A DNA stretch of 38,403 bases. It comes from a virus. This document shows positions 1 to 38,403 of this stretch, piece after piece (within the stretch, counting starts at the first letter, position 1; each line of letters begins with the position of its first letter). The DNA lies in the UHGV virus genome UHGV-0824332; one strand, written 5' to 3'. Below the pieces are notes generated by a model. It made no database searches and was not told the origin of the DNA. It worked only from the letters and a program-made list of their open reading frames with translations. The translations under genes were made by a program, and so were the position numbers.

Positions 1-127
1 CCGATTACCAGTGTTTCGCGGCGACCGTTGATACGGTAGTCATAGCGAAACGAGACCGTGCCTGACGTAAGCACAGCTACATACAGCCCGTCACGATCGG
101 AGACCTTGTACAGTTTGTCCTGCGGCT
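1..127. repeat. Left copy of a perfect 127-bp terminal inverted repeat (partner 38277..38403)
   Basis: Reverse complement of 38277..38403 matches 1..127 base for base; identity ends at 128. Confidence 0.85.
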
Positions 128-158
128 TGAGGTTTTTTAATTTTGTATCGGTAAGCAC
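1..158 (-). CDS. Tyrosine integrase, N-terminal arm-binding (DUF4102-like) part; gene runs leftward out of the window
   Basis: Minus-strand frame reads (V/M)LTDTKLKNLKPQDKLYKVSDRDGLYVAVLTSGTVSFRYDYRINGRRETLVIG, typical of P4/CP4-57 type integrase N-termini; probable GTG start at 156-158 preceded by GGGTGA and an in-frame stop. Confidence 0.6.
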   Translation of the reverse strand, partial: MLTDTKLKNLKPQDKLYKVSDRDGLYVAVLTSGTVSFRYDYRINGRRETLVI

Positions 159-200
159 AATTCACCCGTATAGAAACCATTTTCATGACGGTATGAGAGT

Positions 201-215
201 ATACCTTTAAGGTAA
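201..215. promoter_or_regulatory. Operator-like palindrome ATACC-N5-GGTAA (site A) between integrase start and lysis-operon terminator
   Basis: Imperfect member of the TTACC-N5-GGTAA family seen throughout the window. Confidence 0.4.
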
Positions 216-270
216 TACCGTCACCTGTACCGCCGAAAAATATGGTGTAGAGTGAATAGAAATGAATACA

Positions 271-302
271 TAAAAACAAAAACCCTCTGCAAAAACAGAG
301 GG
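271..302 (-). terminator. Rho-independent terminator downstream of Rz (end of late/lysis operon)
   Basis: Stem CCCTCTG/CAGAGGG (283-302) followed on the minus strand by TTTTTGTTTTT. Confidence 0.55.
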
Positions 303-475
303 TTGAGTTGGCATCTGAATAGGAATGACTTGCTATGAGTTAGCTGTTAATCATTCCCACTCAATTATTTACGACATGCATAACAAATTGACTGATAACA
401 ACTTTCTGCAACCTGATTTTCACCGTACCGTTTTATATACCGTCACCGGAAATCAGTACCATGAAAAATGCCATG

Positions 476-958
476 CTATCTGGTCAGGGTGTCGTACTGT
501 TTTTCACAGACTCTTCCGGCTTCGGCTGCCCGGTCAGCATACTCTGCCAGTTGTCTGTTTCTCTCGAGAGATTTGCTGAGCACGTTGGCAAGCAAAACTC
601 CGGTGTCTGCGGCTGACGTCCCAGCGCCGATAATGGCGTTATACTGCCTGAGCTGCTCACGGATGGCAACGAGCTGTTGCTGCAACCGGCCAGCGCGAGC
701 GGCAGCATCAAGAGCATCATTGCGCGCCTGGTCGATCCTCTGCTGCGCTTTGCGTTCATTGATCGCTTTCTCCTGTTCGTAGTGCTGACGAACTTTCTCA
801 TCTTCGGCTTTGCGCTCTTCCTTCGCCTGCGCATACCCGGCGTCGTACTGACGGCTGCCGTGTACATTCCAGGAAACAATTCCCGATATGACCAGAACAG
901 CAAGCATCACCACGATAAGCAACTGTTTCCAGTATTCTTTTAAGAATGCCCAGCTCAT
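476..958 (-). CDS. Rz-like i-spanin
   Basis: 160 aa, N-terminal TM helix then charged coiled-coil; last lysis gene, start overlaps endolysin stop. Confidence 0.8.
484..720 (-). CDS. Rz1-like o-spanin lipoprotein embedded in Rz in another frame
   Basis: Internal ATG gives [17 protein letters not shown] (lipobox LAGC) followed by Pro-rich periplasmic part; fully nested in Rz. Confidence 0.7.
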   Translation of the reverse strand: MMLLMLPLALAGCSNSSLPSVSSSGSITPLSALGRQPQTPEFCLPTCSANLSRETDNWQSMLTGQPKPEESVKNSTTP

Positions 959-1584
959 ACCGCCAGCGCCTTACTGGCAGTGATGTAACGCGCGCGCCGG
1001 TCGTCGATGCCGTTCCTGCCACCATTGATAATCAGAGTTACACGTACAATATCTCCGGTATACTTCATGCAGCCTTTGCTGGAGAAGAACCAGGCCGCGC
1101 TACGAGCCGCGTATTCGTCCTGTGCCAGCAGTTCAGGATTCTCCAGCAGGTCAACTTTCAGACCGTTTCCGCAGTCACGATAGTTATTCAAACCGGTAAT
1201 CTGGATAAGCCCGCGCCCACGGTAATTCCAGCCATCGCCGGGAGCATTGTTACCCATGCGTTTGCTGTATACCAGATTTGCGATCGCGCGCTGGCGCTCA
1301 AGTGGCAATGGTGGTTCACCAGCGCGGCGCCCCAGTGCATTAGCCTGTCCCTGGGTGAGGCGTCCAGTCCGGACAAAGCTCGCCAGTCCGGTAACGCTGT
1401 AGTTGAAATTCTCCTGCAACCTGGTGAACCCCCCAGACTCATGCCCAACTTGAGCAATAAACATTGCCTGATCTTCTGCCTTGCTGATACCAAACTCTTT
1501 CATCGCAGAAGTTATATGCGAGAACCAGCGAGCGGCCAGCGCCTCGCTAATACCAGCAGCTCGCTGGAATTGTTTAATCTCCAT
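955..1584 (-). CDS. Endolysin, glycoside hydrolase family 19 (chitinase-like)
   Basis: 209 aa with GH19-like motifs ([21 protein letters not shown]); sits between holins and Rz. Confidence 0.85.
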
Positions 1585-36042: not shown

Positions 36043-36091
36043 CCACCACCGCGGCGCCACGCGCGCCGCACTGCAACCAAGAGAGGTATTT

Positions 36092-36340
36092 ATGAAAGGT
36101 GCATTAGGTAAGAAGGAACTCCTGGCGGTGGTGCCACTGTCATGGAGCACTATCGACCGTATGGAGCGCGCAGGTGAATTTCCTAAACGCTGGTATATCA
36201 CTGACAAACGCTGCGCATGGAACCGTGACGAAGTTGAGCGTTGGCTTGATGAACGTCAGGCAGCAAGCCCGGCAGAGTTCCAGGGTAAAAAGCCTCCTGT
36301 TCAGCAACGTGTATATCGTCCTGTGAGCAACGCTGCATGA
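36092..36340 (+). CDS. AlpA-family HTH regulator / excisionase-like protein
   Basis: 82 aa, N-terminal AlpA-type HTH, near the integrase. Confidence 0.6.
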   Translation: MKGALGKKELLAVVPLSWSTIDRMERAGEFPKRWYITDKRCAWNRDEVERWLDERQAASPAEFQGKKPPVQQRVYRPVSNAA

Positions 36341-36449
36341 GTGTGCTGCTAAGGCACTGGAGCAAATGGTCAGGATGGTACTTATTCCTGGCCTCTGTTT
36401 CAGCATGGCTTTATCTGCTGGCATTAATTTTCAGAGAGGGTTGGATTAA

Positions 36450-36749
36450 GTGAGAAAGTTAAGCCGACTTGAAAAATATCACATGAACAAGGTTTCAATG
36501 CGCCGTCCTTCAAAGGTTGTTGCCGTTACTCCTGCGGCGATAGAGATCGAAAAACTCGCGATTGAAAGAGAGAAAAAAGGGCAGTTCCGCATTGCCGCTC
36601 ACCTTTGGCTTCAGTGTATGGATGTTGCTTCTGGTGATGTTGAACGTGCAAGGATCGCGGTTCGCAGGGACCAATGTATCACAAAAGGTAACGGCCTTCG
36701 CCGTGGCGACTATAGCGGCATAGGATGTTGTGGGGTGGTTTATGACTAA
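36450..36749 (+). CDS. Small regulator-like protein (possibly ANR family)
   Basis: 99 aa; GTG start preceded by GAGAGGG; family call from memory. Confidence 0.4.
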   Translation: MRKLSRLEKYHMNKVSMRRPSKVVAVTPAAIEIEKLAIEREKKGQFRIAAHLWLQCMDVASGDVERARIAVRRDQCITKGNGLRRGDYSGIGCCGVVYD

Positions 36750-37392
36750 GAAATACACACTAATCTATGCAGATCCACCCTGGGTATACCGGGACAAAGC
36801 CGCAGATGGTAATCGCGGTGCCGGTTTTAAATATCCGGTTATGAGTGTGCTGGATATCTGCCGCCTTCCTGTGTGGGATTTAGCCGATGAAAACTGTCTG
36901 TTGGCCATGTGGTGGGTGCCAACACAACCACTCGAAGCACTAAAAGTTGTTGAAGCCTGGGGATTCCGTCTTATGACCATGAAGGGCTTCACGTGGATAA
37001 AATGTGGTAGTCGACAACCAGATAAACTGGTTATGGGTATGGGACACATGACTCGCGCCAATAGTGAAGATTGCCTGTTTGCGGTAAAGGGAAAACTACC
37101 TCCGCGCATTAATGCAGGGATCGTTCAGTCATTTACTGCACCGCGGCTTGAGCACTCAAGAAAACCAGATGTCGTTCGTGAAAAACTTGTGCAATTGTTA
37201 GGCGATGTTTCTCGCATTGAACTATTCGCCCGCCAGTCGTCTCATGGCTTCGATGTTTGGGGTAATCAGTGCGAAGACCCGGCAGTGCAACTACACCCTG
37301 GATACGCGTTGGATATTGCCAGATTAACAAATGCATTCAGCAATGCTCCGCTGTCACCAACAGACAACCAGGGGCGGGAGCGTGCTGCATGA
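36742..37392 (+). CDS. MT-A70 family N6-adenine DNA methyltransferase (orphan)
   Basis: IYADPPWVY motif (DPPW) near N-terminus; no adjacent restriction enzyme. Confidence 0.8.
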   Translation: MTKKYTLIYADPPWVYRDKAADGNRGAGFKYPVMSVLDICRLPVWDLADENCLLAMWWVPTQPLEALKVVEAWGFRLMTMKGFTWIKCGSRQPDKLVMGMGHMTRANSEDCLFAVKGKLPPRINAGIVQSFTAPRLEHSRKPDVVREKLVQLLGDVSRIELFARQSSHGFDVWGNQCEDPAVQLHPGYALDIARLTNAFSNAPLSPTDNQGRERAA

Positions 37393-37583
37393 ACAGGGCA
37401 TCACCAGCAGATTTAAGAAAATGCCTTGAAACTGCAAACATGCTTGCACACAGCGGGCTCAGGTTTGTTCCAATTCCCGCTGTCACTGATGCTGAATTTG
37501 CAACACTGTCAGCAATATTCGAAAACAAAATTGAATCACTGGCAGCAGAAGCAGAGATGGAAGAAAATCAGCAGAACTATTAA
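37389..37583 (+). CDS. Hypothetical small acidic protein
   Basis: 64 aa, ATG overlaps methyltransferase stop. Confidence 0.4.
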   Translation: MNRASPADLRKCLETANMLAHSGLRFVPIPAVTDAEFATLSAIFENKIESLAAEAEMEENQQNY

Positions 37584-37586
37584 ACG

Positions 37587-38276
37587 TTATTCCCCCGCCA
37601 TCCACTTCTCAAACTTCGACGGGGAGAACGGAATCAGATCCGTATGCTCCCCGTTAATCCAGGAATCAATCATATCGGCCCACTGCTGCAACATGTAGGC
37701 GCGCTGTCTGGCGTATTCCGCTTTGTTATATACGGCGCGCACACCTTTCTGCTCATGTGCCAGAGCCTTTTCAATCCAGTCTGAAGGATAACCAGCCTCA
37801 TGCAACAACGTACTGGCTGTACGGCGCATATCGTGTACGGTGAAGCCCTGAATATGCTCACCATCTTCATTTATTATTTTCACCGTTCTGTCGATCAGAG
37901 AGTTCAGCGCGGCATTAGATAATGGCTTCCGGAAATTGTAACGACCAGGAACCAGATATTCACTTCCACCAGCGCACATCTGCAACCCAACCAATATATC
38001 CTGTGCCTGTTTAGGCAGGTAAATAACGTGCGCCCGGCTTCCCTTCATGCGGTCTGAAGGAATTGTCCATGTCCATTTTTTAAAATCTATTTCATCCCAC
38101 GTTGCATTGGTGAATTCGCCTTTACGAACCATAGTGATAAGCACCAGCTTTAAAGCCATTTTCATAGTGCCCATAGCACCAATGGCATCCAGCGTGCGGA
38201 AGAACAGGCCAATTTCTTCTGGTGTCAGTGTTCGCTCTCGTGGTTTAAATATGGCGATAGACGAAGGTTTAATGTC
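37587..38276 (-). pseudogene. Tyrosine integrase, C-terminal catalytic fragment (about residues 185-413 of a CP4-57 IntA-like integrase), 5'-truncated at the inverted-repeat junction
   Basis: Frame open to 38276; motifs ATWDEIDF, IPSDRMKGSRAHVIYLP, HDMRRTASTLL, ALAHEQKGVRAVYNKAEY; junction at 38276/38277 removes the N-terminal 180 or so codons. Confidence 0.75.
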
Positions 38277-38403
38277 AGCCGCAGGACAAACTGTACAAGG
38301 TCTCCGATCGTGACGGGCTGTATGTAGCTGTGCTTACGTCAGGCACGGTCTCGTTTCGCTATGACTACCGTATCAACGGTCGCCGCGAAACACTGGTAAT
38401 CGG
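38277..38403. repeat. Right copy of the 127-bp terminal inverted repeat; plus strand encodes integrase residues about 12-53 with no start codon
   Basis: Reverse complement identical to 1..127; plus-strand frame DKLYKVSDRDGLYVAVLTSGTVSFRYDYRINGRRETLVIG. Confidence 0.85.

What the first reader, a model, noticed from the sequence alone, without database searches (positions are those of the whole stretch)
1..38403. Perfect 127-bp inverted repeat at both window ends carrying integrase 5' coding sequence; integrase split into non-contiguous pieces
Positions 1-127 and 38277-38403 are exact reverse complements. The left copy is continuous with an apparent integrase start (GTG about 156-158) reading out of the window. 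The right copy abuts, in opposite orientation, an integrase C-terminal catalytic fragment (37587-38276) whose frame is open right up to the junction, so about 130 codons are missing between the pieces. This fits an inversion with a breakpoint inside int, a hairpin or palindromic assembly artefact at contig ends, or a real cruciform-prone junction.
Basis: seen in the sequence. Interest (0 to 1): 0.55.

Follow-up and report, generated by a model that had tools for sequence, protein, structure and literature searches.

The report
Assembly hairpin artefact splitting phage integrase
The perfect 127-base inverted repeat at the two ends of this phage contig is most likely not a genome feature: it is what an assembler working with 127-base words leaves when one strand-switching junction inside the integrase gene is present in the reads, and the phage itself is an ordinary relative of E. 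coli phage phiV10.

Summary
Positions 1-127 and 38277-38403 are exact reverse complements. The left end is integrase (int) nt 1-158, the right end is int nt 552-1251, and 393 nt (131 codons) are missing.

The window is otherwise a colinear, nearly complete phiV10/epsilon15-like temperate podophage. It is in its attP-containing form and integrates at the 3' end of guaA. Hundreds of E. coli prophages and sequenced phages carry the same int intact, with both window fragments 100% identical to one intact allele.

The right-hand junction sits on a 10-bp inverted repeat native to int: AGCCGCAGGA at nt 32-41 and its complement at nt 552-561. This is a fold-back (strand-switch) join with an intervening deletion. 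The repeat covers int nt 32-158, that is 127 nt counted from the first base of that microhomology.

A k=127 de Bruijn simulation of the reconstructed 38,679-bp circle plus this one junction returns a contig identical to the window. Other k values do not.

The junction is absent from every collection searched, while the parental junction is in at least 120 viral contigs.

Verdict: the repeat is an assembly-graph artefact built on a chimeric junction. The junction is most likely technical, but an in vivo origin is not excluded. The integrase is not really split. Low interest.

The parts
1..127 (-). Left repeat arm. Genuine int sequence, nt 158-32 (codons 11-52), in its natural context.
   Evidence: 158/158 identical to intact int of E. 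coli S87 (L002), contiguous with the int start and the attP region.
1..158 (-). Integrase N-terminal fragment, int nt 1-158, with the GTG start at 158-156. It runs off the left end of the contig.
   Evidence: translation; window 158 corresponds to the annotated start of WP_000954559.1. The N-terminal products of homologous contigs carry PF13356 Arm-DNA-bind_3.
159..348 (.). int upstream region and one arm of attP, with arm-type motif copies at 185-194 and 215-224.
   Evidence: window 1-365 matches the attL side of the S87 prophage at 99.7%; motif GTGACGGTAT gives 6 hits against 1.44 expected. The epsilon15 record annotates comparable sites as integrase binding sites.
349..365 (.). attP core AATCATTCCCACTCAAT. 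Its reverse complement is the last four codons plus the stop of guaA.
   Evidence: this is the only stretch shared by the window, attL (L002) and attR (L003). guaA ends ...ATTGAGTGGGAATGA (IEWE*).
437..446 (-). Arm-type motif copy on the lysis-gene side of attP.
   Evidence: exact match to GTGACGGTAT.
476..37583 (.). Body of a phiV10/epsilon15-like phage genome: lysis genes, tailspike, virion genes, terminase, early genes, replication module, recombination genes, methylase. It is colinear with relatives and shows no other rearrangement.
   Evidence: colinear megablast blocks against EC.W1-9 and phiV10; annotation; Pfam.
37587..38286 (-). Integrase C-terminal fragment, int nt 552-1251 (codons 185-416 plus stop). 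It contains the catalytic domain.
   Evidence: 700/700 identical to intact int. PF00589, E = 4e-19; every E. coli and phage match stops at 38286.
38277..38286 (.). 10-bp microhomology at the fold-back junction. AGCCGCAGGA is int nt 32-41 (sense) and is also the complement of int nt 552-561.
   Evidence: both alignments claim these 10 bases; this inverted repeat pair is native to intact int.
38287..38403 (+). Fold-back copy of int nt 42-158 in the opposite orientation. With 38277-38286 it forms the right repeat arm. This is the artefactual part.
   Evidence: matches L002 5507-5381 inverted, 100%; simulation shows it ends exactly k = 127 nt after the start of the microhomology.

Best explanation
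The window is a nearly complete genome of a phiV10/epsilon15-like (Uetakevirus-type) temperate podophage of E. coli. It is captured in its attP-containing form (circular, concatemeric or tandem prophage) and integrates at the 3' end of guaA. The real genome is about 38,679 bp with an intact 1,251-nt P4-type integrase gene next to attP.

The sequenced material contained molecules with a fold-back junction. On these, the strand complementary to int, after copying down to int nt 552, continues on the opposite strand from int nt 42 onward. The switch happened at a 10-bp inverted repeat that int carries naturally (nt 32-41 and 552-561).

A de Bruijn assembler with a final word size of 127 followed this junction. 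The 127-mer that begins at the microhomology (int nt 32-158) is then the reverse complement of a 127-mer already used at the other end of the same path. The graph branches there and the contig stops. The outcome is a perfect terminal inverted repeat of exactly k = 127, a contig start at int nt 158, and loss of int nt 159-551 into a separate short edge.

Shown: the anatomy, the microhomology, the uniqueness of the junction, and the exact reproduction by simulation. Inferred: that the assembler used k = 127, and that the junction arose in vitro (polymerase template switching as in multiple displacement amplification, or fold-back priming during library preparation) rather than in the cell.
For: (a) The repeat is exact and 127 nt long. 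127 is the final k of the JGI metaSPAdes workflow and, from my own knowledge, the largest k SPAdes allows.

(b) The repeat is int nt 32-158. It starts at the first base of the 10-bp microhomology, so both contig ends follow from one junction.

(c) Simulation: the reconstructed circle plus one fold-back fragment, without the parental link, gives a single k=127 unitig of 38,403 bp identical to the window. With the parental link present, the window is the two-edge path 244 + 38,286 - 127. With k = 55, 77, 99, 119 or 141 the repeat equals k and the contig differs from the window.

(d) Relatives have int intact and contiguous with attP and the lysis genes. These are phiV10, EC.W1-9 and 26 other phage records and 556 E. 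coli records. All matches stop at 38286.

(e) Both int fragments are 100% identical to an intact allele, 158/158 and 700/700. There is no sign of decay.

(f) The junction 40-mer is absent from the IMG/VR, metagenome and species-genome collections. The parental 40-mer is in at least 120 IMG/VR contigs.

(g) The junction has the published signature of amplification chimeras: inverted, with an intervening deletion, and priming on 2-21 nt of complementarity (PMC1855051). Sonication libraries also give inverted-repeat chimeras (PMC10908179).

(h) Metagenomic phage contigs with terminal inverted repeats have been flagged by others as possible artefacts (PMC9610469).
Against: No reads, assembly graph or sample metadata are available. 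The assembler, its k and the origin of the junction are therefore inferred.

The contig passes through the point where the parental path (int nt 551 to 552) should branch off. So the fold-back junction was either favoured over the parental link or was the only link left. A rare chimeric read would not normally win. This needs very uneven coverage (as after amplification), a path-extension quirk, or a junction that is truly abundant in the DNA.

The source contig could not be found in the indexed assemblies.
Confidence: 0.8

Rival explanations
1. The fold-back junction is real and arose in vivo. Replication template switching between short inverted repeats inside int produced an int-null phage variant carrying an inverted duplication. 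One example is the quasipalindrome type: outer 10-bp pair nt 32-41/552-561 and inner 13-bp pair nt 167-179/513-525, giving a 148-bp inverted repeat around a 333-bp spacer. Integrase is not needed for lytic growth, so such a variant could be abundant. The 127-bp terminal repeat would still be only the assembler's k-mer view of that longer internal repeat.
For: The contig does not break at the parental branch point, as if the parental link were missing (reasoning). Intact int carries properly nested inverted repeats, 10 bp and 13 bp, which such a mechanism needs. int decay is common in this prophage group: frameshifts, nonsense mutations and a deletion of nt 165-480 are seen in Logan contigs.
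Against: The junction is in no other genome, phage or contig searched. The predicted second junction J3 is absent from the metagenome and viral collections. Both int fragments are identical to an intact allele, so any such event would be very recent. An in vitro origin explains the same features without needing a second junction.
Confidence: 0.1
2. A site-specific or homologous inversion of the 510-bp int segment between the two 10-bp inverted repeats, either fixed or flipping between two states.
For: The right-end junction is exactly one of the two junctions such an inversion would create.
Against: The left end shows the parental join, int nt 41 to 42, uninterrupted through nt 158, so a fixed inversion is excluded. 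A mixed population would give four junctions and would break the contig at the 10-bp repeats, not 117 nt further on. The partner junction J1 is not in the species-genome collection. The 10-bp repeat does not resemble the att core, so Int itself is not expected to act on it.
Confidence: 0.03
3. A genuine linear phage genome with terminal inverted repeats, either protein-primed (phi29/PRD1 type) or with hairpin telomeres (N15 type). Repeat-based completeness rules would read the contig this way.
For: Only the presence of an exact terminal inverted repeat.
Against: The repeat lies inside a coding sequence and truncates it. Sequenced relatives have no such repeat, carry int intact at that place, and are circular permutations of the window.

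The replication module is lambda-like (DnaT-like initiator with iterons plus a P protein) and the terminase is phiV10-like. Every ORF of 400 aa or more is accounted for: tailspike, three large virion proteins, portal, large terminase and Ea22/DUF551. None is a candidate protelomerase or family B polymerase. attP is internal to the contig.
Confidence: 0.01
4. A misjoin made by the assembler itself without any chimeric read, for example during gap closing or repeat resolution between two related integrase genes in the sample.
For: Many E. coli genomes carry 2-4 places matching these int sequences, so int can be a repeat in the graph.
Against: A 10-bp overlap is far below any k used (21 or more), so a graph join needs reads that physically contain the junction. 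The junction lies exactly on a microhomology, which points to a polymerase or annealing event.
Confidence: 0.06

Closest known systems
Escherichia phage phiV10 and Salmonella phage epsilon15 (genus Uetakevirus) and their guaA-linked prophages in E. coli
   Same: Gene order is colinear over the whole window, with 90-99% nucleotide identity in shared modules. The integrase is the same (98% to phiV10; 100% of the retained parts to the S87 prophage allele). The lysis, attP, int, DUF1382 and methylase order is the same. The attachment site at the guaA 3' end is the same in E. coli prophages.
   Different: The relatives have one intact 1,251-nt int and no terminal inverted repeat. The window lacks int nt 159-551 and has a fold-back copy of nt 32-158. 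The tailspike and some early genes are different mosaic modules.
Inverted chimeras of multiple displacement amplification (Lasken and Stockwell 2007, PMC1855051) and inverted-repeat chimeric reads from library preparation (PMC10908179)
   Same: Inverted orientation, an intervening deletion, joined segments close together (about 510 nt apart), and 10 nt of complementarity at the junction, which is within the published 2-21 nt range.
   Different: Whether the sample was amplified is unknown. A single chimera normally stays rare, whereas here it was incorporated into the main contig.
Word-length terminal repeats of de Bruijn contigs (direct repeat = circular path; inverted repeat = an edge running from a k-mer to its own reverse complement), and 'ITR = complete genome' calls in viral catalogues
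   Same: The repeat is exact, its length equals a standard k, and its position is set by a graph branch. Gulyaeva et al. noted viral clusters that mix DTR and ITR contigs and suspected artefacts.
   Different: I found no description of this exact case, a fold-back junction inside int. The general graph property rests on my own knowledge plus the simulation here.
Unique region flanked by inverted repeats in assembly graphs (the RUR components described for viralFlye, PMC8862349; chloroplast-type IR)
   Same: The graph topology is the same: a long unique edge bounded by a repeat and its reverse complement.
   Different: In those cases the repeat is a real, kilobase-scale genome feature conserved among relatives. 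Here, relatives show the repeat does not exist.

Membership tests
k-mer-length hairpin contig (de Bruijn assembly artefact) | The terminal repeat is exact and its length equals the assembler's final k. | tested here: met
   127 nt, 100%. k = 127 is the final k of the JGI metaSPAdes workflow. The assembler actually used for this contig is unknown.
k-mer-length hairpin contig (de Bruijn assembly artefact) | Both contig ends are predicted by a single junction plus k. | tested here: met
   The repeat is int nt 32-158, starting at the first base of the microhomology. The simulation returns a unitig identical to the window at k = 127 only.
k-mer-length hairpin contig (de Bruijn assembly artefact) | The junction is not a feature of related genomes. 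| tested here: met
   Zero hits in three collections. All 556 E. coli records and 28 phage records stop at 38286. The parental junction is in at least 120 IMG/VR contigs.
k-mer-length hairpin contig (de Bruijn assembly artefact) | The assembly graph shows the branch at the terminal k-mer, and reads support the parental path. | not testable with these tools
   No reads or graph are available, and the source contig was not found.
Amplification or library fold-back chimera | An inverted join with an intervening deletion between nearby segments. | tested here: met
   int nt 562 onward (antisense) is joined to nt 42 onward (sense). The segments are 510 nt apart. This matches the class described in PMC1855051.
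Amplification or library fold-back chimera | Short complementarity (2-21 nt) at the junction. | tested here: met
   A 10-nt inverted repeat native to int.
Amplification or library fold-back chimera | The junction is present only in a technical subset of molecules (amplified sample, sub-genomic read fraction). | not testable with these tools
   Needs reads and sample metadata.
Phage genome with genuine terminal inverted repeats (protein-primed or hairpin-telomere) | Encodes a terminal protein with a family B polymerase, or a protelomerase. | tested here: not met
   All ORFs of 400 aa or more are accounted for by homology to phiV10 or EC.W1-9 virion and terminase genes, or by Pfam Ea22/DUF551. 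Replication genes are DnaT-like plus lambda P-like.
Phage genome with genuine terminal inverted repeats (protein-primed or hairpin-telomere) | The repeats are conserved at the genome ends of relatives. | tested here: not met
   Relatives are circular permutations with int intact at the place of the window's ends.
Invertible DNA segment or inversion within int | Both recombinant junctions are present. | tested here: not met
   Only one is present. The left end keeps the parental int nt 41 to 42 join. J1 is absent from the genome collection.
Uetakevirus-type (epsilon15/phiV10-like) temperate podophage | Genome-wide colinearity and nucleotide similarity to phiV10. | tested here: met
   About 56% of window 128-25000 aligns to phiV10 at 95%, and 87% aligns to EC.W1-9 at 97%, in conserved order.
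Uetakevirus-type (epsilon15/phiV10-like) temperate podophage | A P4-type tyrosine integrase next to attP. | tested here: inconclusive
   Both fragments are present and identical to an intact allele, with PF00589 on the C-terminal part. The gene is not contiguous in the window, which I attribute to the artefact.
Tyrosine recombinase (Phage_integrase, PF00589) | A catalytic domain with the conserved Arg, His-x-x-Arg and Tyr positions. | tested here: met
   PF00589, E = 4e-19, on 37587-38174. Reading the translation: VRKGEF, HDMRRT, AHEQ and VRAVYNK. Assigning these residues is my inference from the family pattern.

The most novel reading that the evidence does not exclude
The fold-back junction is a real in vivo product. 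Template switching during phage DNA replication, between nested short inverted repeats inside int, created an abundant int-null phiV10-like variant. The nested repeats are a 10-bp pair and a 13-bp pair formed by intragenic copies of the arm-type Int-binding motif. The variant would carry a roughly 148-bp inverted repeat in place of part of int. It would be a natural example of quasipalindrome-type rearrangement that locks a temperate phage out of integration.
Probability: 0.1. Interest if true: 0.35.

Novelty: not a real feature. Interest (0 to 1): 0.08.

Why it matters
The value is mainly for quality control. Completeness rules for viral contigs treat an exact terminal inverted repeat of 20 nt or more as a sign of a complete linear genome. 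This contig would pass that rule, yet it is a circular-map temperate phage missing 393 bp of its integrase.

A practical rule follows. A terminal inverted repeat whose length equals the assembler's k, and which lies inside a gene that is intact in relatives, should be treated as a graph artefact. The terminal k bases on one side should then be trimmed.

An annotation taken at face value would also wrongly call this phage integrase-defective. If the junction were real instead, it would be a modest example of inverted-repeat-driven gene inactivation in a phage.

Tried and rejected
(1) Looked for the source contig, and so its sample and assembler, by exact protein look-up of the 195-aa int C-terminal ORF and the 771-aa tailspike. 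The source was not found. The first look-up returned other prophages with int pseudogenes, none with the junction.

(2) Searched the junction 40-mer in viral, species-genome and metagenome contig collections. There were no hits.

(3) Searched the partner junctions predicted for real events: J1 for a simple inversion and J3 for a double template switch. There were no hits. This is weak evidence, because the source sample may not be in those collections.

(4) Considered that the excess of inverted repeats in int (seven overlapping 10-mer pairs against 0.75 expected) marks a functional structure. Most are copies of the arm-type motif GTGACGGTAT, which the epsilon15 record annotates as integrase binding sites. 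The 10-bp junction repeat is unrelated to that motif and is compatible with chance.

(5) Considered that Int itself made the junction. I rejected this because the microhomology does not resemble the att core.

(6) The first DNA alignment failed on a malformed reference and one script failed on a missing file. Both were redone with BLAST in Python.

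
Full report
**Observation.** The window's first 127 bases and last 127 bases are exact reverse complements (pair I1). The match does not extend imperfectly beyond 127: window 128 onward and the reverse complement of 38276 downward are unrelated. All other inverted pairs in the window are 25 nt or shorter and imperfect.

The minus strand of 158-1 opens with GTG and encodes 52 residues typical of the arm-binding N-terminus of a P4-type integrase. The minus strand of 37587-38276 encodes the catalytic C-terminal part (PF00589, E = 4e-19). 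The frame stays open 19 codons past 38276 before a stop.

**What the window is.** Megablast against sequenced phages shows a phiV10/epsilon15-like temperate podophage. EC.W1-9 covers 87% of window 128-25000 at 97% identity, and phiV10 covers 56% at 95%. Block-by-block comparison shows the whole window is colinear with both phages, as a reverse-complemented circular permutation. The only differences are replaced mosaic modules, namely the tailspike and some early genes (annotation).

In those phages the order is Rz-like spanin, non-coding region, integrase (1,251 nt), DUF1382, methyltransferase. This is exactly what the window would show if its two ends were joined through int.

In E. coli S87 the same element is a single prophage between guaA (int side) and yfgI (lysis side).
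- Window 1-365 matches the int/guaA side at 99.7%.
- Window 349-1500 matches the lysis/yfgI side at 98.4%.
- The 17 bases shared by both, 349-365 (AATCATTCCCACTCAAT), are the reverse complement of the last four codons and stop of guaA.

The window therefore carries attP. The DNA was circular, concatemeric or a tandem prophage. Tandem prophages do occur: the chromosome of strain GPEC403-625 shows int-attP-lysis order.

**What is missing, and where the junction lies.**
- Against the intact S87 integrase (416 aa, WP_000954559.1), window 158-1 is int nt 1-158, 158/158 identical.
- Window 38286-37587 is int nt 552-1251, 700/700 identical.
- The absent part is nt 159-551, 393 nt or 131 codons.
- The right repeat arm is int nt 32-158 in the opposite orientation.
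- Window 38277-38286 (AGCCGCAGGA) belongs to both alignments. Intact int naturally contains this 10-mer at nt 32-41 and its reverse complement at nt 552-561.

The right end is therefore a fold-back join. The sequence runs antisense through int down to nt 552, switches strand on a 10-bp inverted repeat, and continues in the sense direction from nt 42.

**Why the repeat is exactly 127.** The repeat begins at the first base of the microhomology and is 127 nt long. The left contig end (int nt 158) is then simply nt 32 + 127 - 1. In a de Bruijn graph, a path that leaves a k-mer and returns to that k-mer's reverse complement must stop there. At that node the continuation is ambiguous between the path and its own reverse complement.

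I tested this directly. I rebuilt the expected circle: window 1-38286 plus the 393 nt from S87, 38,679 bp, with int intact.
- Alone, the circle gives one cycle at k = 127.
- With one fold-back fragment added, it gives unitigs of 38,286, 647 and 244 nt. The window is then the two-edge path 244 + 38,286 - 127 = 38,403.
- If the parental link across int nt 500-600 is also missing, it gives a single unitig of 38,403 nt that is identical to the window, with a 127-nt terminal inverted repeat.
- With k = 55, 77, 99, 119 or 141, the repeat equals k and the contig is not the window.

k = 127 is the last word size of the JGI metagenome workflow, metaSPAdes with k = 33, 55, 77, 99, 127. From my own knowledge it is also the maximum k of SPAdes. 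One junction plus k = 127 therefore explains the repeat, its length, both contig ends and the 'missing' codons.

**Is the junction a property of the phage?** The searches say no.
- All 556 E. coli records and all 28 phage records that match the right end stop at 38286. None continues into the repeat.
- The 40-mer across the junction is absent from IMG/VR, from one genome per 185,579 species, and from the JGI metagenome contigs.
- As a positive control, the parental 40-mer across int nt 532-571 occurs in at least 120 IMG/VR contigs.
- Ten Logan contigs that encode the same 195-aa C-terminal ORF are ordinary int pseudogenes: frameshifts, nonsense mutations, and one deletion of nt 165-480. None has the junction.
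- Both retained int pieces are identical to an intact allele, so nothing suggests a long-standing broken gene.

**Origin of the junction.** Its anatomy is an inverted join with an intervening deletion, partner segments about 510 nt apart, and 10 nt of complementarity. This is the dominant class of chimeras formed by phi29 polymerase during multiple displacement amplification. In that work more than 85% were inverted with deletions, and more than 70% primed on 2-21 nt of complementarity (PMC1855051). Inverted-repeat chimeric reads also arise in sonication-based library preparation (PMC10908179). Others have suspected that many metagenomic phage contigs with terminal inverted repeats are artefacts (PMC9610469). 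I therefore favour a technical origin.

The main caveat is that the contig follows the fold-back path rather than the parental one. That calls for very uneven coverage, a path-extension choice, or a junction that is truly abundant. Without reads this cannot be settled.

**Rivals.**
- A simple inversion between the 10-bp repeats is excluded. The left end keeps the parental nt 41 to 42 join, and the partner junction was not found.
- A genuine linear genome with terminal repeats is excluded. The repeat truncates a gene. Relatives lack it. attP is internal. Replication is lambda-like, with a DnaT-like initiator, iterons and a P protein. No ORF could be a protelomerase or a protein-primed polymerase.
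- A real in vivo template-switch rearrangement remains possible, at about 10%. Intact int has properly nested inverted repeats: the 10-bp pair and a 13-bp pair at nt 167-179/513-525. These could support a quasipalindrome-type event giving a 148-bp inverted repeat. A k=127 graph would display that the same way. The predicted second junction was not found in the metagenome or viral collections, but the source sample may not be in them.

**Verdict.** Biologically, the terminal repeat is an assembly-graph artefact, and the 'split integrase' follows from it. The underlying phage is an ordinary guaA-integrating phiV10-like phage. The case is useful mainly as a warning for repeat-based completeness calls and for integrase annotation. 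Interest is low.

Noticed in passing
window 349-365 (core), with motif copies at 185-194, 215-224 and 437-446: This is the attP site. The 17-bp core equals the reverse complement of the guaA 3' end (IEWE plus stop), so integration rebuilds guaA. It is flanked by copies of a 10-bp arm-type motif, GTGACGGTAT (6 hits in the window against 1.44 expected).
   Followed up: partly
intact int in L002 (nt 167-179, 259-269 and 513-525 of the gene), which falls in the 393 bp absent from the window: Three further copies of the arm-type motif lie inside the integrase coding sequence, two in one orientation and one inverted. The epsilon15 record annotates the equivalent intragenic positions as integrase binding sites. 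All three fall in the segment the contig lost.
   Followed up: partly
window 31767-31916, inside ORF 31355-32170 (-): Three tandem 24-bp iterons (two of them identical), plus related copies, sit within the DnaT-like/HTH_36 replication initiator gene. A lambda P-like gene (30573-31373) lies next to it. This looks like a lambda-style origin inside the initiator gene.
   Followed up: no
window 24147-24223 (+): A tRNA-Arg (anticodon TCT) lies between the terminase and portal gene regions. The related S87 prophage and the O157 typing phages also carry one.
   Followed up: no
L006-L015 (Logan contigs): The integrase of guaA-linked phiV10-like prophages is often a pseudogene. Ten independent contigs carry the same 195-aa C-terminal ORF because of frameshifts or nonsense mutations. 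L006 has a clean deletion of int nt 165-480 with a 6-bp overlap.
   Followed up: partly
L001 (E. coli GPEC403-625 chromosome, 1415473-1424672): The order int, attP-like spacer, lysis genes occurs inside a finished chromosome, which implies two phiV10-like prophages in tandem at guaA. One of them carries an endosialidase tailspike and a DGQHR-domain gene. Five genomes show this full junction.
   Followed up: no
window 2814-5129 (-): The 771-aa tailspike differs from those of phiV10 and EC.W1-9. The exact protein was found in only two other assemblies. It has only a weak pectate-lyase-like Pfam hit (E = 4e-4, below the cut-off). This looks like a host-range module swap. No O-acetyltransferase gene like the phiV10 oac lies next to it.
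   Followed up: no
window 28917-29435 (-) and 29497-30105 (-): Two early-region ORFs (172 and 202 aa) have no Pfam match and lie in segments not shared with phiV10 or EC.W1-9.
   Followed up: no
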